DNA from: Galbibacter orientalis DSM 19592
Lineage (GTDB): Bacteria > Bacteroidota > Bacteroidia > Flavobacteriales > Flavobacteriaceae
Reading direction: 5' to 3'
DNA length: 32,000 nt
NCBI RefSeq assembly: GCF_000260115.1
Contig: NZ_JH651379.1
Coordinates: 3,032,240-3,064,239 of the forward strand
The first letter of the stretch is position 1. The number at the start of each line of letters is the position of its first letter. Position numbers and translations under genes: made by a program. Below, piece after piece: positions 10,116-25,446 of this stretch. The notes below the pieces were generated by a model. It searched no databases, had not been told where the DNA came from, and saw nothing but the letters and a program-made list of their open reading frames with translations.

Positions 10116-10190
10116 TTCGTTTTTTGATTGCCCACAAAGTGGGGTTTGATTGATTTGATTGATGACTCACAATGTGAGGTTTTTTTTTTT
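10116..10190 (-). promoter_or_regulatory. padR upstream region: CAATCAA-A5-CGAA leader, two CAC-N3-GTG palindromes and an A10 tract
   Basis: Palindromes CCCAC-AAA-GTGGG (10131-10143) and CTCAC-AAT-GTGAG (10166-10178) are interleaved with GATTGA words. A T10 run lies on the plus strand at 10180-10190. Confidence 0.3.
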
Positions 10191-10207
10191 AGGTTCAAAG
10201 GGGCAAA

Positions 10208-10267
10208 GATTAAATGATTGAAAGATTGAAAGATTGAATGATTGAATGATTGAAAGATTGAAAGATT
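10208..10267. repeat. Tandem 8-mer array GATTGAAW, 7 units
   Basis: The units are gattaaat, gattgaaa x2, gattgaat x2, gattgaaa x2, then a partial gatt. All are in register. Confidence 0.9.
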
Positions 10268-10275
10268 TTGTCATG

Positions 10276-10569
10276 TCTCCTGTCTCTTATCTCCTGTTTC
10301 TTGTTTCTTGTCTCTTATCTCTTATCTCTTGTCTATTGTCTATTGTCTCCTGTCTTCTGTCTTCTGTCTCCTGTCTTCTGTCTCCTGTCTTCTGTCTTCT
10401 GTCTCTTGTCTCTTGTTTCTTGTTTCTTGTCTCTTGTTTCTTGTCTCTTGTCTCTTATCTCCTGTCTCTTGTCTCTTATCTCTTATCTCTTGTTTCTTGT
10501 TTCTTGTCTCCTGTCTCTTGTCTCTTGTCTCTTGTCTCTTGTCTCTTGTCTCCTGTCTCTTATCTCTTG
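10276..10569. repeat. Tandem 7-mer array, consensus TCTCTTG, 42 units in perfect register (294 bp)
   Basis: Counted unit by unit: tctcttg x13, tctcctg x8, tctctta x7, tttcttg x7, tcttctg x5, tctattg x2. There are no indels. 250 of 294 plus-strand bases are pyrimidines. Confidence 0.95.
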
Positions 10570-10582
10570 TCTACAAAAAAAC

Positions 10583-20064: not shown

Positions 20065-21111
20065 TTAGCTTATGTTCTTGCTTTGAGGGACTTGGTTTTT
20101 ATTTGTTTTTGCCTCAAGAAGTAAATAAAATTGAATCCCAAATAAAATAGAAGCAATGACTAAATGTAATGCCTGGCTACCAAAAGGAAAATGGAAGTAG
20201 AACATCCCAATTCCTGTTAATATTTCTATAATAATAAATGCTAAAACCCAATTTACTTTTGAAAATCCAAGGTTTAACTTTTTATTTCTGAGGAATAAAA
20301 ATATGTTTACTAAAAAGACTAATACGGATAAAGACCGGTGGATGTAAAAATCGATTTCAGGATTTGCTAACCATTGATTCTTTGCCATTGTTCCATAAAC
20401 ATCAGTTTGTTCATCTATAAATTGTCGAACCTGTGTTCCTAAAACTATTTGTATAAGTGTAAGGATTAAAGCTGCTACTAAGATGCTTGAAAACAGACTA
20501 TTTGATTTAAGAGTTTTATTTTTTTCTTTAGTCTGATAGATAATAATAAGAATAAAAGCAACAATTACAAGAGCCATAACCATATGTAATGTAATCCTAA
20601 TTGGCGCTAAAACTGAATATACCACTGTAGCACCAAGCCAAGCTTGGAAGCCCATTCCAAAAACTGTAAGCCATGCCAGAATAGGAATCCATTTATTTTT
20701 TTTCCAATAAGAAAACGAAGCAAATGCTAAAATAAGTGTAGCAAAACCAGCTAAGGCACCAAACAATCGGTTTATATATTCCACCCAAGTATGCGACGGA
20801 TTGAAAACAGCGTAATCATGTTTTGTATACGTCTCCCAATGAGATTCTGTATAGGTGTTTCCAGTAGTGAAGTCTTCTTTAGCTACTTTTAACGTTTTAT
20901 CTATAATAATAACTTGCCCTTTTTTGAATTCTCTTTTAGGCTGCCATTCTAGTTGAGAAATTTCAGTAGGAGGAATGTAATACCCAAAACACTTTGGCCA
21001 ATCTGGACACCCCATACCACTACCTGTCATACGCACCACAGCTCCAGCTATAATTACTAGATACACTAATACAAGTGTGATTTTTGCTATTTTTCTAAAA
21101 TTGTTTTTCAC
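20065..21111 (-). CDS. ctaA: Heme A synthase (COX15/CtaA family)
   Basis: 348-aa polytopic ORF with RMTGSGMGCPDWPKCFG and conserved His residues in the helices. It has a GTG start, and the N-terminus MKNNFRKIAKITLVLVYL looks complete. Confidence 0.85.
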   Translation of the reverse strand: MKNNFRKIAKITLVLVYLVIIAGAVVRMTGSGMGCPDWPKCFGYYIPPTEISQLEWQPKREFKKGQVIIIDKTLKVAKEDFTTGNTYTESHWETYTKHDYAVFNPSHTWVEYINRLFGALAGFATLILAFASFSYWKKNKWIPILAWLTVFGMGFQAWLGATVVYSVLAPIRITLHMVMALVIVAFILIIIYQTKEKNKTLKSNSLFSSILVAALILTLIQIVLGTQVRQFIDEQTDVYGTMAKNQWLANPEIDFYIHRSLSVLVFLVNIFLFLRNKKLNLGFSKVNWVLAFIIIEILTGIGMFYFHFPFGSQALHLVIASILFGIQFYLLLEAKTNKNQVPQSKNIS

Positions 21112-21116
21112 TTTTT

Positions 21117-21280
21117 AAGGTTTAAAGGTTTAAAGGTTCAAAGGTTCAGAGGTTCAAAGGTTCAAAGGTTCAAAGGTTCAAAGGTTCAAAGGTTCAAAGG
21201 TTTCAAAAGATTCAAAGGTTCAAAGGTTTCAAAAGATTCAGAGGTTCAGAGACTCAAAAGATTAAAAATATTCAAAGGTT
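21117..21280. repeat. Tandem array of about 19 units of AAGGTTCA (8-10 nt variants)
   Basis: Parsed unit by unit: aaggttta x2, aaggttca x2, gaggttca, aaggttca x5, then 9-nt variants aaggtttca / aaagattca, then decaying units. It starts 5 nt from the ctaA GTG. Confidence 0.9.
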
Positions 21281-21316
21281 TTTTGTTTTTATTTCTACAC
21301 AAACTAAATACATTTA

Positions 21317-21364
21317 CTTTGCCACTTTGCCACTTTGCCACTTTGCCACTTTGCCACTTTGCTA
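21317..21364. repeat. Tandem 8-mer array CTTTGCCA, 6 units
   Basis: Five perfect ctttgcca units plus a final ctttgcta. The cta of the final unit is the TAG stop (minus strand) of the CCA-adding enzyme gene. Confidence 0.9.
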
Positions 21365-22792
21365 TTTCTCAACAGGTGTTAATCCAAGTTTTTCTCCTCT
21401 TTTTAACATGAATTCGAAAGCAGCATCATGTTCATTCGGAATTTCGCCTTCTAAAATTGCTTCTTTAATAGCCTCTTTTATAATTCCAATTTCTTTTGAA
21501 GGTTTGATATTAAAAGTTTCCATTATTTCTGCACCATCAACTGGAGGTTGGAAATTTCGTACATGATCTCTTTCTTCAACTTCAGCTATTTTCTGACGAA
21601 CAATTTTAAAGTTGTTGTTGTATTTTTTAAAACGTTTAGGATTTTTAGTAGTAATATCAGCCTCACAAAGAGTCATTAAATCTTCTACGTGGTTTCCAGC
21701 ATCAAAAATTAATCGTCTTACAGCCGAATCGGTTACTATATCCTGAGCCAATACAATTGGTCGAGAACTCATTAAAACGAGCTTTTGTACCAGTTTCATT
21801 TTATCATTTAGAGGCATATGCAGGCGTTTAAATAGTTTATAAACCATTTTAGAGCCTACAAATTCGTGTCCGTGAAAGGTCCAGCCAATTTTTTCATCAA
21901 AACGCTTAGTAGGTGCTTTTCCGATATCGTGTAATAATGCAGCCCATCGCAACCAAAGGTCATCTGTGTTTTTAGCAATATTATCTACTACCTCAAGCGT
22001 ATGCCAGAAATTGTCTTTATGCTTTTGTCCTTCCTTCTCTTCAATGCCTTGAAGGTTTGTTAATTCGGGCATAATAATAGGTAATAATCCTGTTTTGAAT
22101 AATAGAGAAAAGCCAATAGAAGGTTTTTTACTAAGTAATATTTTATTTAGTTCATCTACAATACGCTCGTTTGAGATGATTTTTATTCGTTCTCTATTTT
22201 TTTTAATTGCTTGAAGCGATTTATTCTCAATAATGAAATCAAGCTGTGAGGCAAATCTTATAGCGCGCATCATTCTTAACGGATCATCAGAATACGTAAT
22301 ATCTGGATCCAATGGGGTTCTAATAATTTTATTTTCAAGGTCAGAAATCCCATTAAAGGGATCTAGAAGTTCTCCATAGCTTTCTTTGTTTAAAGAAATA
22401 GCCAGTGCATTAATTGTGAAATCTCTTCTATTTTGGTCGTCTTCTAAAGTACCGTTTTCAACAACTGGTTTCCTACTATCAAAGTGGTAGCTTTCCTTCC
22501 GAGCTCCTACAAATTCTACTTCTAAATCTTCAAAACGAATCATGGCCGTTCCGAAGTTTTTAAAAACAGAAATCTTAGTCTTCTTTTCTATATTTGAAGC
22601 CACTTCTTTTGCTAAATCAATTCCGCTACCAAGCGCTACAACATCAATATCTTTTGGAATTCCTCTTTCTAGTAGAAAATCGCGTACAAAACCACCAATA
22701 ACATAGCTTTTTAGGTTTAAAGAAGCAGATGCTTTTTCGATAATTTCAAAAATTGGATTTTGAATCGCGGTAATGATCTTTTTATTTGACAT
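21362..22792 (-). CDS. CCA-adding tRNA nucleotidyltransferase / poly(A) polymerase family protein with HD domain
   Basis: 476-aa ORF with GGFVRDFLL...KDIDV, RRDFTINA and the HD motif ALLHDIGK. Confidence 0.85.
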   Translation of the reverse strand: MSNKKIITAIQNPIFEIIEKASASLNLKSYVIGGFVRDFLLERGIPKDIDVVALGSGIDLAKEVASNIEKKTKISVFKNFGTAMIRFEDLEVEFVGARKESYHFDSRKPVVENGTLEDDQNRRDFTINALAISLNKESYGELLDPFNGISDLENKIIRTPLDPDITYSDDPLRMMRAIRFASQLDFIIENKSLQAIKKNRERIKIISNERIVDELNKILLSKKPSIGFSLLFKTGLLPIIMPELTNLQGIEEKEGQKHKDNFWHTLEVVDNIAKNTDDLWLRWAALLHDIGKAPTKRFDEKIGWTFHGHEFVGSKMVYKLFKRLHMPLNDKMKLVQKLVLMSSRPIVLAQDIVTDSAVRRLIFDAGNHVEDLMTLCEADITTKNPKRFKKYNNNFKIVRQKIAEVEERDHVRNFQPPVDGAEIMETFNIKPSKEIGIIKEAIKEAILEGEIPNEHDAAFEFMLKRGEKLGLTPVEK

Positions 22793-22832
22793 TCATTTCT
22801 TTTTTTGCCACAAATTCACTAATATTTTATAA

Positions 22833-23207
22833 TTAGTTAATAATTCTCCTGTGGTCTAATAAATCTTTATGGAAATTAGCCAATAATGCTAATTTTAATT
22901 TTGAAACTTTTAAGTAATTTAAACATTGAGCAAAATGTTTATCATGCAAATTATCACATGATTTAACTTCTAAGATAATTTTATCAAAAACAACAAAATC
23001 TGTATAGAATTTATGAGGTAAAATAATATTTTTATATGAAACTTTAAACTCTTTTTCTCTTTCGAAAGGAATATTTAAAGACTTAAACTCATACTCTAAT
23101 GCATCTTTATATACAATTTCAGAAAAACCACTTCCTAACTGATTATAAATTTCAAAAAGCACCCCTACAATACTATAACTTTCATCTTTATAAATTAATG
23201 TGCTCAT
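22833..23207 (-). CDS. GxxExxY protein (PD-(D/E)XK nuclease-like small protein)
   Basis: 124-aa ORF with the literal GxxExxY motif (GSGFSEIVYKDAL) and a D...E.K-like core (DFVVFDKIILEVKS). Confidence 0.8.
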   Translation of the reverse strand: MSTLIYKDESYSIVGVLFEIYNQLGSGFSEIVYKDALEYEFKSLNIPFEREKEFKVSYKNIILPHKFYTDFVVFDKIILEVKSCDNLHDKHFAQCLNYLKVSKLKLALLANFHKDLLDHRRIIN

Positions 23208-23276
23208 TATAAATTTGTGTATTAGTGGCTTTTCAATTTATGAATTACCAGATTAGAACTGATACTGCCTACTATA

Positions 23277-23837: not shown

Positions 23838-23861
23838 AGTTATTATTAGTGTTCCTTTTAA

Positions 23862-24620
23862 TTATAGTTTGTCTATGTAAAAAAAGTTCTTTTTAAAAAA
23901 AGTATATTTAATAGAGTCTAATAGCATTATAGGTAGTTTTTTAAGTTTTCTATAACCGCTATCTAAAATATAACTGAGCCCTTTTTTCTTATTTTTCCAT
24001 GAATCTTCCCACCAATGAATGCAAATAGTATTATTTGTTACACATTCTGGATAGAATTTTTCTTGCCATGAAAAAGGGTAGAAATACTCTGAGGTAACTA
24101 CCAAAACATCTTTTATATGTTGATTTTTGTAGGTTTCTAATCCATAGTTTTTAAGAATATAAGACGCTATAGGAGGTCCTCCCATGGCATTAAATTGTGT
24201 TCTTTGCTTTCTTTCGGTTTCTTTTATACAGTCTAGAATAAACTCATTCTTAGCTTGAGCTCCTAATACTGCTGAATTTATTGGAAATTTTTCGTTTTCA
24301 AATTTCCCTTGGAAACCAATAAAAGCTTTTTCATTTAAAAAAGAATCGAAAGTTTTTACCATTTCAATATCCGTATCTAAATAAATTCCCCCTTCTGTAT
24401 AAATAGAATAAAGCCTTATGTAGTCTGTAATAAAAGACCACTTTTTTTGATCATATAATTTTTGTAGGAAAGGGAGTTTTTCAAATGGAGTGTTACTTTC
24501 ATCCCATCTTTTTATTTCATATTCAGGCATTTTTTCTTTCCAAGAAGAAATGCATTTTTTGATGGTATCGTTTTGAATACCATTCCCATACCAACAATAA
24601 TGGATTTTTTTAGGAATCAT
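23862..24620 (-). CDS. Glycosyltransferase with DXD motif (Gly_transf_sug / OCH1-like)
   Basis: 252-aa ORF with IPKKIHYCWYG at the N-terminus and GGIYLDTDIE (DXD). Confidence 0.7.
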   Translation of the reverse strand: MIPKKIHYCWYGNGIQNDTIKKCISSWKEKMPEYEIKRWDESNTPFEKLPFLQKLYDQKKWSFITDYIRLYSIYTEGGIYLDTDIEMVKTFDSFLNEKAFIGFQGKFENEKFPINSAVLGAQAKNEFILDCIKETERKQRTQFNAMGGPPIASYILKNYGLETYKNQHIKDVLVVTSEYFYPFSWQEKFYPECVTNNTICIHWWEDSWKNKKKGLSYILDSGYRKLKKLPIMLLDSIKYTFFKKNFFYIDKL

Positions 24621-24650
24621 TTAAAAAAGCTTTATTAAAGTGAATGCGTA

Positions 24651-24658
24651 CAAAAATA
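24651..24658 (-). promoter_or_regulatory. Candidate -7 box TAttTTTG for the DXD glycosyltransferase gene
   Basis: Exact TAnnTTTG on the minus strand, 30 nt upstream of the ATG at 24620. Confidence 0.3.
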
Positions 24659-24702
24659 TATTAATATTGATGATTTTAGTATTTTTATCGAAAATTTAAT
24701 AA

Positions 24703-25446
24703 ATGGAAATTAGCGGTTTAGTTATTACTTTCAATGAAGAGACATGGATTGGTGGTTGTATTGAAGACATGTTTAGGGTTTGTGATGAAGTTATAGTAAT
24801 AGATTCATATAGCAAAGATAGAACGGTTGAGATAGCCAAGGAGAAAGGAGCTAAAGTAATTCAGCAAGAATTTTTAGGCGATGGACCGCAAAGAATACAT
24901 GGTTTACAATTTTGTAAGAATAATTGGATATTGAATTTAGATGCTGATGAAAGACTTGAGGAAGATTCTTATCAATTTATAAAATCTGGAAAGTTTTTTG
25001 AAGATTTATATGATGGCTATAGATTTAGAAGAAATACTTATTTTAGAGATGAGCTTATTAATTTTTCAGGTTGGTATCCCGATTATGCTTGTCGCTTTTT
25101 TGATAAGAGAACAGCTAAACCAGAGACAACAATTGTACATCAGGATGTAAAAGGTAAAAATATTTTAAAATCCAAAATGCATTTACGTCATTATAGTTGG
25201 AATAGTTTTAATCAGATTATTTCTAAAAAAAATCAATATACAGATTGGCAAGTTCAGGAGTATGTAGAAAAAGGAAAAAAAGCTTCTTCATTTGCACCAT
25301 TGATTCACGGATGGGTTTCTTTTTTTAAATGTTACATCTTTAAAAAGGGGATGTTCCATGGATTAGATGGATTTACTTTTGCATTGATTCAAGCTTTTTT
25401 TTCATATATGAAATATGCCAAATTAATTAAAGAAAATAAAAAGTAA
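24703..25446 (+). CDS. Family 2 glycosyltransferase
   Basis: 247-aa ORF with VITFNEE, VIDSYSKD and LDADE. Confidence 0.8.
   Translation: MEISGLVITFNEETWIGGCIEDMFRVCDEVIVIDSYSKDRTVEIAKEKGAKVIQQEFLGDGPQRIHGLQFCKNNWILNLDADERLEEDSYQFIKSGKFFEDLYDGYRFRRNTYFRDELINFSGWYPDYACRFFDKRTAKPETTIVHQDVKGKNILKSKMHLRHYSWNSFNQIISKKNQYTDWQVQEYVEKGKKASSFAPLIHGWVSFFKCYIFKKGMFHGLDGFTFALIQAFFSYMKYAKLIKENKK

What the first reader, a model, noticed from the sequence alone, without database searches (positions are those of the whole stretch)
21112..21364. Second composite tandem array abuts the ctaA start codon and supplies the stop codon of the CCA-adding enzyme gene
About 19 units of AAGGTTCA (21117-21280) start only 5 nt from the GTG start of the heme A synthase gene. 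There is no room for a promoter plus leader between the array and the start codon. The ctaA promoter or 5' UTR must therefore lie within or beyond the array, or ctaA is read through from the upstream gene. After a 36-nt spacer come six CTTTGCCA units (21317-21364). The last unit is the variant CTTTGCTA, whose CTA is the TAG stop of the upstream minus-strand gene. With the consensus unit (TGG on the minus strand) that ORF would instead continue into the repeat. Unit gain or loss or point change here would directly alter a protein C-terminus on one side and the leader or promoter of a respiratory gene on the other.
Basis: partly seen in the sequence, partly recalled or inferred. Interest (0 to 1): 0.62.

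Follow-up and report, generated by a model that had tools for sequence, protein, structure and literature searches.

The report
Variable repeat arms between cca and ctaA
The two 8-base repeat runs between the CCA-adding enzyme gene and the heme A synthase gene are real and change length between strains. They are most likely the leftover arms of a small gene cassette that has lost its gene, not a purpose-built switch, and they did not create the upstream stop codon.

Summary
Observation confirmed. The 250-nt cca-ctaA spacer (both genes on the minus strand) holds TAG|CAAAG(TGGCAAAG)x5, a 68-nt middle part and 16.5 TGAACCTT-type units. These end 5 nt before a GTG start whose position is conserved across the genus.

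What is new:
- Two metagenome contigs of the same species (98.5-99.3% identical flanks) carry 2 instead of 6 distal units and 10.25 instead of 16.5 proximal units. The middle part and the TAG stop are unchanged, so both arrays vary in copy number.
- The TAG stop is older than the array. Another species has the same ...VEK-TAG end followed by an unrelated array.
- The distal array plus the next 33 nt match the left arm and leader of a cassette in this genome's arg operon. That cassette carries a 23S-rRNA-IVS-protein gene (PF05635). Here the gene is gone and its ATG reads ATA.
- No Bacteroidetes -7 box (TAnnTTTG) lies within 700 nt upstream of ctaA, and no terminator was found. Three congeners have an 11-nt spacer. 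ctaA is therefore probably co-transcribed with cca.

The genome (size identical to Joostella marina En5T) holds 116 such 7-8-nt arrays. This scan has seen the same cassette and array type in other genomes.

The parts
21362..22792 (-). cca (CCA-adding enzyme / tRNA nucleotidyltransferase), 476 aa, TAG stop at 21364-21362
   Evidence: ORF. Pfam PolyA_pol, PolyA_pol_RNAbd and HD. The same VEK-TAG end occurs in G008 and in the conspecific contigs.
21317..21364 (-). Distal array, the left arm: TAGCAAAG + 5 x TGGCAAAG. It is G-rich on the sense strand. The conspecific contigs have 2 units here.
   Evidence: The same unit and the same junction to the leader occur at three arg-operon sites.
21284..21316 (-). 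Remnant of the IVP-gene leader and its first codons (TAAATGTATTTAGTTTGTGTAGAAATAAAAACA). The cassette's GAGAAATGAAAAC reads GTAGAAATAAAAAC here, so ATG has become ATA.
   Evidence: Local alignment to the arg-operon IVP leader scores 43, against 16.4 +/- 2.3 for shuffles, with 0 of 300 shuffles reaching it. The intact gene is at L111 3255-3605 (PF05635, 133 bits).
21249..21283 (-). Non-repeated flank with one isolated CCTTTGAA. The part ATATTTTTAATCT..CTGAACC matches the sister species G003 (ACATTTTTAATTCTGAACC).
   Evidence: This stretch is identical in the conspecific contigs.
21117..21248 (-). Proximal array, the right arm: 16.5 units of TGAACCTT type. It is C-rich and G-poor on the sense strand. 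The conspecific contigs have 10.25 units. Other species have 6 (G008), 3.5 (G009) and 1 (G003).
21109..21116 (-). AAAAA run followed by the GTG start codon of ctaA
   Evidence: The A-run plus a start codon at the homologous position is found in all 10 genus genomes (GTG in 8, ATG in 1, TTG in 1). The N-terminus MKxNFRKIAKI is conserved, and differences from L001 are mostly in third codon positions.
20065..21111 (-). ctaA (heme A synthase, COX15-CtaA), 348 aa
24651..24658 (-). Nearest canonical Bacteroidetes -7 box (TATTTTTG) on the gene strand, 31 nt before the glycosyltransferase gene 24620..23862. It is a candidate promoter for the whole run: glycosyltransferase, Sua5/YrdC, PDDEXK_3, cca, ctaA.
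   Evidence: This is inferred and no transcript was mapped.

Best explanation
The spacer is a gene-less remnant of a small hairpin-type cassette, and its two arms are short tandem arrays that grow and shrink by replication slippage.

In the lineage of this species, a cassette of the kind that carries a '23S rRNA intervening-sequence protein' gene (PF05635, Avd-like four-helix bundle) came to lie between the cca stop and the ctaA start. An intact, closely related copy sits in this genome's arg operon. At cca-ctaA the gene was later deleted. What remains is the G-rich left arm (CAAAGTGG units) flush with the old TAG stop, 33 nt of the gene's leader and first codons with the ATG turned to ATA, and a C-rich, G-poor right arm (TGAACCTT units) flush with the A-run and GTG of ctaA. 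The right arm sits where relatives already have one to six TGAACCTT units. It is therefore either an in-place expansion of an older seed or the place where the cassette docked.

Both arms vary in copy number within the species. ctaA has no promoter of its own and is made from a longer transcript that runs through cca and the spacer. The spacer is tolerated because it has no terminator, little structure and a G-poor, A-rich approach to the start codon.

Shown: the anatomy, the copy-number variation, the homology to the arg cassette, the age of the stop codon and the absence of promoter and terminator motifs. Inferred: co-transcription, the deletion history, slippage as the mechanism and near-neutrality.
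For: - Copy-number variation. Conspecific contigs L109 and L110 are 98.5-99.3% identical in the flanks. They have 2 instead of 6 distal units and 10.25 instead of 16.5 proximal units, a different order of variant units, and an identical 68-nt middle part.
- Cassette homology. The junction GCAAAGTGGCAAAGTAAATGTATT is 24/24 identical at two arg-operon sites. The leader alignment scores 43 against 16.4 +/- 2.3 for shuffles. In the arg operon the ATG inside GAGAAATGAAAAC starts a 116-aa PF05635 gene (133 bits). CAAAGNGG arrays lie on its left, and CTTTGCCC/CTTTGAAC/CTTTGAGC units followed by TTAAAAA lie on its right, before the next gene.
- An intermediate stage. The argF'-argB spacer has the same arms, a leader with ATA, and about 40 nt of decayed IVP coding sequence (alignment score 70).
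- Family context. There are 10 PF05635 genes in the genome, and several are flanked by inverted 7-8-nt arrays, such as AAAGATTG/CAATCTTT at C1:2502324 (flank duplex z = -4.8). Of 116 arrays with 7-8-nt units, 111 are intergenic.
- History at this site. The left flank (ATTTTTAAT-CT) and right flank (TTAAAAAgtg) of the proximal array match the sister species G003, which has one unit. In G008 and G009 the only TGAACCTT array in the genome is the one at ctaA.
- Co-transcription. The spacer is 11 nt in G001, G005 and G007. No TAnnTTTG lies within 700 nt of ctaA, although that box peaks 21-40 nt before start codons genome-wide (95 and 109 per bin against about 25). No terminator-like site was found.
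- No RNA family or structure. There is no Rfam match, and the spacer RNA folds no better than shuffles (z = +1.42).
Against: - Co-transcription rests on motif absence and on comparison with relatives.
- The two arms here match in only 5 of 8 positions per unit (duplex z = -1.4), so a hairpin is not demonstrated at this locus.
- The right arm's unit is older than the cassette remnant: it is present in G003, G008 and G009, whose spacers show no significant leader homology. It may not be a cassette arm at all.
- There is a strong rule that stop-side arrays are G-rich (21 of 22) and a weaker tendency for start-side arrays to be C-rich (12 of 16). This shows some constraint and sits uneasily with full neutrality.
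- L109 and L110 are identical at this locus and may represent a single population, so the within-species comparison may rest on one independent strain.
- Copy numbers taken from short-read assemblies can be compressed.
Confidence: 0.6

Rival explanations
1. Copy-number tuning element. The untranslated, unstructured array with more C than G in front of ctaA sets how much ctaA is made. It could act through Rho-dependent polarity, mRNA stability, or the distance and context of translation initiation. Slippage would then give the population heritable variation in aa3-type oxidase assembly.
For: - Both arrays vary within the species.
- The array is flush with the start codon, with a conserved A-run.
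- An array of the same unit is flush with a start codon at three independent genes: ctaA, argB in this genome, and a 169-aa ORF that follows a 109-aa ORF in another genus, G113.
- Start-side arrays are C>G in 12 of 16 cases and stop-side arrays are G>C in 21 of 22, so the sequences are under some directional constraint.
- The sense strand of the array is 25% C and 12.5% G and is unstructured, which is roughly what a Rho loading site needs. That last point rests on general knowledge of Rho and was not tested.
Against: - No expression data exist.
- Closely related species manage with 0-1 units or an 11-nt spacer.
- The same kind of array sits next to many unrelated genes, which points to a property of the element rather than of ctaA.
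- The G/C rule can also be explained by common descent of the cassettes, or by simple purifying selection on leaders.
Confidence: 0.2
2. Promoter array. The units (AACCTTTG) act as repeated Bacteroidetes -7 boxes, so ctaA is transcribed from inside the array. Unit number would set promoter strength or leader length.
For: - The unit matches TAnnTTTG in 7 of 8 informative positions, including TTTG.
- TTTG-N19-AACCTTTG lies just upstream of the array in G000, and TTTG-N21-AACCTTTG in G009 (read directly).
- The last intact unit ends 27 nt before the GTG, which is a normal leader length.
Against: - Genome-wide, VAnnTTTG boxes show a flat distribution before start codons (20-34 per 10-nt bin), whereas TAnnTTTG peaks sharply. 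The missing first T therefore matters.
- AACCTTTG itself never occurs within 30 nt of a start codon in the set examined.
- CTTTG-type arrays point toward a gene start in 24 cases and away in 21.
- Within the array, TTTG-to-box spacings are 16 or 24 nt, not about 19.
Confidence: 0.07
3. Plain microsatellite-type slippage arrays that arose on the spot from chance proto-repeats and have no connection to any cassette or mobile element.
For: - The proximal array's flanks match the one-unit sequence of G003.
- Heptamer and octamer simple-sequence repeats are a known, widespread class. Mrazek et al. 2007 is discussed in PMC4679880.
Against: - The distal array is joined to a 33-nt sequence that is significantly similar to the IVP-gene leader.
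- The same array, leader and array order recurs at argF'-argB.
- Identical units recur at many loci of this genome only. CAATCTTT x3 gives 44 pattern matches in G000 and none in 9 congeners. The 168-nt mosaic unit gives 91 matches in G000 against 0-4 elsewhere. Independent chance seeding does not predict this.
Confidence: 0.08
4. Working RNA hairpin. The two arms pair in the cca-ctaA transcript, and RNase III cuts the stem, as it does with rRNA intervening sequences. This would uncouple the stabilities of the cca and ctaA messages.
For: - CAAAG and CUUUG cores pair in register in the predicted fold.
- Intact cassettes elsewhere in the genome have better-matched arms.
- IVS stems in 23S rRNA are RNase III substrates (PMC4990558 abstract).
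Against: - The predicted stem is a string of 5-bp helices separated by 3x3 mismatches.
- The whole-spacer fold is weaker than shuffles (z = +1.42), and the arm-arm duplex is not significant (z = -1.4).
- The arms differ in length (6 against 16.5 units) and changed length independently in the other strain.
Confidence: 0.05

Closest known systems
Long simple-sequence repeats with 5-11-nt units (Mrazek et al. 2007) and cyanobacterial STRR heptamer arrays
   Same: Head-to-tail 7-8-nt units. Almost exclusively intergenic (111 of 116 here). Several different units lie side by side in one spacer. Copy number changes quickly between close strains. Distribution is patchy and lineage-specific.
   Different: Here the arrays are tied to a recognisable cassette (arms, leader, PF05635 gene) and to a 168-nt mosaic dispersed repeat. 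Octamers with a fixed CAAAG/CTTTG core are prominent. The host is a flavobacterium.
TAACTGA intergenic direct repeats of marine Beggiatoaceae, cyanobacteria and a few Bacteroidetes (MacGregor 2015, PMC4679880)
   Same: Arrays sit within a few nucleotides upstream of start codons. They share the spacer with other short repeats. They occur in Flavobacteriaceae (Gramella forsetii, Aequorivita sublithincola). Close relatives have short spacers without repeats.
   Different: The unit is different (TGAACCTT and TGGCAAAG, not TAACTGA). Here there is evidence for a cassette origin, plus a within-species length comparison. That paper proposed binding by a post-transcriptional regulator, which was not tested here.
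23S rRNA intervening sequences carrying an S23p / PF05635 ORF (for example Coxiella burnetii, PMC4990558)
   Same: The related intact copy in this genome's arg operon has the same gene family (PF05635, 133 bits) flanked by inverted arms. The cca-ctaA spacer keeps one such arm and the gene's leader.
   Different: It is not in rRNA and the gene is absent at this locus. The arms are tandem 8-mers rather than a unique stem, and they are poorly complementary. RNase III excision is neither shown nor predicted here.
Modular intercistronic repeats such as BIME/REP of enterobacteria and BOX elements of pneumococci
   Same: Dispersed non-coding mosaic elements that sit between genes of operons and have a variable number of internal modules.
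   Different: There is no sequence relation. The modules here are 7-8-nt tandem words, not 35-45-nt palindromic units. The comparison comes from my own knowledge and was not tested.
Phase-variation (contingency) loci driven by simple sequence repeats, as in Haemophilus and Neisseria (for example PMC12721329)
   Same: A slippage-prone repeat in the non-coding region just upstream of a gene.
   Different: The units are 8 nt, not 1-5 nt. The repeat does not lie between promoter elements or inside a reading frame. No on/off logic is evident, and the gene is a housekeeping respiratory gene.

Membership tests
Long simple-sequence repeats / STRR-type arrays | Head-to-tail repeats of a 5-11-nt unit, far beyond chance | tested here: met
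   TRF scores of 186 and 94. Pattern matches of 13 and 5 against 0.06 and 0.00 in shuffles.
Long simple-sequence repeats / STRR-type arrays | Intergenic location and many arrays per genome | tested here: met
   116 arrays with 7-8-nt units, of which 111 lie outside called ORFs. The other 5 lie in ORFs that the arrays themselves open.
Long simple-sequence repeats / STRR-type arrays | Copy-number differences between close strains | tested here: met
   6 against 2 units and 16.5 against 10.25 units, compared with conspecific contigs that are about 99% identical in the flanks.
TAACTGA repeat system (MacGregor 2015) | The unit is TAACTGA | tested here: not met
   The units are TGAACCTT and TGGCAAAG.
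TAACTGA repeat system (MacGregor 2015) | The array lies in forward orientation within a few nt of a start codon | tested here: met
   The array ends 5 nt before the GTG.
IVS-type cassette with PF05635 gene | Contains an ORF of family PF05635 (23S_rRNA_IVP) | tested here: not met
   The 250-nt spacer holds no such ORF. Only the leader and the first 4 codons remain, with ATG changed to ATA. The intact paralogue is at L111 3255-3605.
IVS-type cassette with PF05635 gene | Two flanking arms that are reverse complements and can form a stem | tested here: inconclusive
   The CAAAG/CTTTG cores are complementary (5 of 8 positions per unit). However, the duplex z is only -1.4 and the whole-spacer z is +1.42.
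IVS-type cassette with PF05635 gene | Sequence homology of arm and leader to an intact cassette | tested here: met
   A 24/24 identical junction. Alignment score of 43 against 16.4 +/- 2.3 for shuffles.
IVS-type cassette with PF05635 gene | Located in 23S rRNA and excised by RNase III | tested here: not met
   It lies between two protein-coding genes. Excision cannot be tested with these tools.
Contingency locus (SSR-driven phase variation) | The repeat lies between promoter elements or inside a reading frame, so that unit changes switch expression | tested here: not met
   No TAnnTTTG box in or near the spacer. The array lies outside both ORFs. The stop codon is unchanged in the strain with fewer units.
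Contingency locus (SSR-driven phase variation) | Expression differs with copy number | not testable with these tools

The most novel reading that the evidence does not exclude
The 7-8-nt arrays that litter intergenic spacers in this and many other bacteria may not be independent slippage products. They may instead be the arms of a mobile hairpin cassette family built around an Avd-like PF05635 gene. On this reading, gene-less descendants of the cassette multiply (about 100 copies here), always with a G-rich 5' arm and a G-poor 3' arm. The start-side arm would then act as a leader whose copy number sets the output of the downstream gene, here ctaA and with it aa3-type oxidase assembly.
Probability: 0.15. 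Interest if true: 0.7.

Novelty: new member of a known kind. Interest (0 to 1): 0.42.

Why it matters
Short heptamer and octamer arrays between bacterial genes have been known for decades (STRR, LSSR, TAACTGA repeats) without an accepted origin or function. This locus has the pieces side by side in one genome, whose size matches a published cultivable type strain:
- an intact cassette with a PF05635 gene;
- a half-decayed copy;
- a gene-less copy at cca-ctaA;
- a natural within-species length variant.

Together these give a concrete, testable route from cassette to bare arrays. They also provide a simple system for asking whether array length in front of a start codon matters in a Bacteroidetes-type cell that translates without Shine-Dalgarno pairing.

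For annotation, the practical messages are that ctaA's GTG start is correct, that the small plus-strand ORFs across the arrays are artefacts, and that the cca stop does not depend on the repeat.

Tried and rejected
- Exact-protein look-up of CtaA for other assemblies found nothing on record.
- Reaching the rest of the metagenome contigs, to compare the other array locus of the window, failed because the records are not held.
- Rfam gave no match at E <= 1.
- The sigma-70 and terminator scan gave only chance-level promoter hits inside cca and no terminator.
- A structured RNA element was rejected: whole-spacer z = +1.42.
- Array units acting as -7 boxes were rejected on the positional test and the orientation count of 24:21.
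- A cassette-leader remnant in the sister species G003 looked plausible by eye but was not significant (score 20 against 18.1 +/- 2.8), so I dropped it.
- Stop-side arrays being G-rich on the sense strand at first looked like an orientation rule relative to transcription. An inverted repeat reads the same on both strands, so the result only says that all cassettes have the G-rich arm 5'. I do not claim transcription-linked orientation.
- An 18-nt match to the arm-leader junction at C1:3609880 lies inside a coding gene and was not pursued.
- Replication-strand analysis gave only a modest bias, and the replichores were assigned roughly on a two-scaffold draft.

Full report
**Where this is.** The window is G000:C1:3032240-3064239 of a 4,508,243-bp, 33.6% G+C genome in two contigs. 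That size equals the published draft of Joostella marina En5T (PMC3739173). The closest named relative found is Joostella sp. CR20, with CtaA 82% identical. Both genes of the finding are on the minus strand. cca runs 22792..21362 (PolyA_pol, RNA-binding and HD domains). ctaA runs 21111..20065 (COX15-CtaA, 157 bits).

**The observation.** It holds. TRF reports AAGGTTCA x16 at 21117-21248 and ACTTTGCC x5.9 at 21316-21362. Shuffles of the window give essentially no such matches. In gene direction the 250-nt spacer reads as follows:
- TAG|CAAAG(TGGCAAAG)x5;
- a 68-nt middle part;
- 132 nt (16.5 units) of TGAACCTT-type repeat, with 9-nt variants and a duplicated three-unit block;
- AAAAA, then GTG.

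The GTG is the first possible start, because an in-frame TAA lies two codons upstream. The start position is conserved in all ten genus genomes searched (GTG in 8, ATG in 1, TTG in 1), each with an A-run before it and the N-terminus MKxNFRKIAKI after it. Differences from Joostella sp. CR20 in the first 30 codons are mostly third-position changes.

**The stop codon.** TAG does occupy the place of TGG in a consensus unit, and TGG would add 16 residues. But the array did not make the stop. Species G008 ends cca with the same ...LTPVEK-TAG and follows it with an unrelated heptamer array (GGTTAAT type). The conspecific contigs keep TAG|CAAAG with only one further unit. A second array in this genome also starts TAG|CAAAG, right after argB. 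These arrays begin immediately after pre-existing stop codons.

**Strain comparison.** A metagenome scan with a 34-nt piece of the ctaA 5' end found two contigs, L109 and L110. Both are 98.5-99.3% identical to the window over 6-9 kb. Their spacer is 168 nt instead of 250. They have 2 distal units instead of 6, the identical 68-nt middle part, and 82 nt (10.25 units) of proximal array instead of 132 nt, with a different order of variant units. Both arrays therefore vary in copy number within the species while their flanks differ by about 1%. The two contigs are identical at this locus, so this may be a single independent comparison.

**Across the genus**:
- The spacer is 11 nt in three species (G001, G005, G007).
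- It is 55-137 nt, with 0-1 TGAACCTT units, in G002, G003, G004 and G006.
- G009 has 3.5 units and G008 has 6 units, flush with the start codon.
- In G008 and G009 this is the only TGAACCTT array in the whole genome.
- The sister species G003 reads ACATTTTTAATTCTGAACCTTTTAAAAAgtg. This matches both flanks of the G000 array (ATATTTTTAATCT...CTGAACC...CCTTAAAAAgtg), so the proximal array grew in place around an older unit.
- Copy number is patchy on a Cca+CtaA tree.
- Outside the genus, one of about 150 family genomes has the same unit: five copies flush with the ATG of an unrelated 169-aa ORF, downstream of a 109-aa ORF.

**What the arrays belong to.**
- The genome has 116 arrays with 7-8-nt units, and 111 are intergenic. 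Octamers with a CAAAG/CTTTG core are common.
- The distal array is not isolated. Its junction GCAAAGTGGCAAAGTAAATGTATT recurs exactly at two sites in the arg operon.
- In that operon (L111), argB ends TAG|CAAAGAGG..., and three tandem copies follow of [CAAAGNGG]n-TAAATGTATTAAATCTGRTGAGAAATGAAAAC.
- In the last copy, the ATG inside GAGAAATGAAAAC starts a 116-aa gene of family PF05635 (23S rRNA intervening-sequence protein, 133 bits, with weaker bAvd similarity).
- That gene's stop is followed by CTTTGCCC CTTTGCCC CTTTGAAC CTCTGAGC (CTTTGAGC)x3 CTTTGAAC TTAAAAAAAC...ATG of the next gene.
- The full unit is therefore a G-rich CAAAG-type left arm, a leader, the gene, and a C-rich CTTTG-type right arm ending in TTAAAAA.
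- The cca-ctaA spacer has the same left arm, 33 nt of the leader and first codons (ATG now ATA), and a right arm of the same type ending TTAAAAA. The gene is missing.
- The leader alignment scores 43 against 16.4 +/- 2.3 for shuffles, with 0 of 300 as good.
- The argF'-argB spacer is an intermediate. It has the same arms, ATA, and about 40 nt of recognisable decayed coding sequence (score 70).
- The congeners' spacers show no significant leader similarity. The cassette remnant is therefore specific to this species, while the TGAACCTT unit is older.

**Wider family.**
- There are ten PF05635 genes in the genome. Each sits between ordinary genes, and several have clear inverted arms of 7-8-nt words, for example AAAGATTG/CAATCTTT (duplex z = -4.8).
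- A 168-nt mosaic repeat gives 91 matches in this genome and 0-4 partial ones in nine congeners. It consists of a T-run, NNNNTAAC x4-5, CAAAGNNN x4-5, a GTAAATGTG...GGAAATGA module, AGTCNGA x4 and a CAGT-rich tail.
- CAATCTTT arrays give 44 pattern matches here and none in the congeners. The burst is lineage-specific.
- On the sense strand, arrays starting within 15 nt after a stop codon are G>C in 21 of 22 cases (p = 1e-5). Arrays ending within 40 nt before a start codon are C>G in 12 of 16. An inverted repeat reads the same on both strands, so this means all cassettes have the G-rich arm 5' and the G-poor arm next to the downstream start. The cca-ctaA spacer obeys the rule (G 17 / C 6 distal; C 32 / G 14 proximal).

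**How ctaA is expressed (inferred).**
- The canonical Bacteroidetes -7 box TAnnTTTG peaks 21-40 nt before start codons in this genome (95 and 109 per 10-nt bin against about 25). Boxes lacking the first T, which include the array unit AACCTTTG, are flat.
- No TAnnTTTG lies within 700 nt upstream of ctaA here. In the congeners the only matches are inside the cca coding sequence.
- CTTTG-type arrays face gene starts 24 times and gene ends 21 times.
- No terminator-like site or Rfam family is present, and the spacer RNA is less structured than shuffles.
- Given the 11-nt spacers in three species, the best reading is one transcript through cca and ctaA. It may start at the TATTTTTG box at 24658-24651, ahead of the run glycosyltransferase, Sua5/YrdC, PDDEXK_3, cca, ctaA.
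- Whether array length changes ctaA output is open. It could act through Rho loading on an untranslated stretch with more C than G, through message stability, or through start-site context.

**What is known.** Heptamer-dominated simple-sequence repeats (Mrazek 2007), cyanobacterial STRR and the TAACTGA repeats flush with start codons are the closest published class. The TAACTGA repeats include long arrays in the flavobacteria Gramella forsetii and Aequorivita (PMC4679880). PF05635 genes are known from rRNA intervening sequences (PMC4990558). Earlier follow-ups of this scan reported the same link between arrays and a PF05635 hairpin cassette in other genomes. That lead prompted the check made here. 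The locus is a new, well-documented member of this kind, not a new kind.

**Limits.** Gene calls for the genome-wide counts are my own simple ORF calls. Replichores were assigned roughly.

Noticed in passing
G000:C1:3587346-3590316 (locus L111 1840-4820): Every gene junction of the arg operon (argF'-like, argB, PF05635 gene, argE-like, argH) carries 8-nt arrays. One spacer holds three tandem copies of a 184-nt arm, leader and tail unit in front of an intact PF05635 gene.
   Followed up: partly
G000 genome-wide, e.g. C1:1774150-1775300 and C1:1802650-1803750: A 168-nt mosaic dispersed repeat is built entirely of 7-8-nt word modules and is often tandem. It gives 91 matches in this genome and 0-4 partial ones in nine congeners. 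It shares the CAAAGNNN module and a GTAAATGT...GGAAATGA module with the cassette leader.
   Followed up: partly
window 10145-10572: The other composite array, (CAAGAGA)x42 then (CAATCTTT)x7 in gene direction, is followed at about 10180-10205 by CTTTGCCCCTTTGAACCT plus an A-run (read on the minus strand). The same right-arm start is seen in the arg cassette and at C1:3424566, C1:1036267 and C2:351897.
   Followed up: partly
window 22793-23276: The single-copy PDDEXK_3 (GxxExxY-type) gene upstream of cca sits between short inverted repeats: GCCACTAATACACAAATT upstream and TATTAGTGAATTTGTGGC downstream. It looks like a hairpin cassette too. Joostella sp. CR20 has the gene at the same place, with a (CTGAACA)x4.3 array before cca.
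   Followed up: no
G000 genome-wide: Stop-side arrays are G>C on the sense strand in 21 of 22 cases, and start-side arrays are C>G in 12 of 16. Co-directional spacers that bear arrays lie in lagging-strand genes in 36 of 56 cases, against a 43% background (p = 0.002). The replichores were assigned roughly.
   Followed up: partly
L086 (G002) and L087 (G008), cca-ctaA spacers: The same spacer holds other small inserts in other species. G002 has G+C-rich hairpin-like words (CCCCTATGGTCCCCTCAAGGGGAC, CTCCCTTTGAAGGGGCAAGGGGGA). G008 has a GGTTAAT/TGATAAT heptamer array. The site looks like a recurrent landing place.
   Followed up: no
window 23838-25429 compared with L110 3490-5322: The conspecific metagenome contig has about 1.8 kb of different sequence where the window has about 1.6 kb (the glycosyltransferase region). 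This is a strain-specific replacement next to the candidate operon promoter.
   Followed up: no
G000:C1:3609880-3609897: An exact 18-nt copy of the arm-leader junction TGGCAAAGTAAATGTATT lies inside a protein-coding gene, where it reads ...ETGKVNVLL....
   Followed up: no
window 21283-21566, plus strand: The 42-aa and 79-aa plus-strand ORFs across the distal array are opened by the repeat itself and should not be annotated as genes.
   Followed up: no
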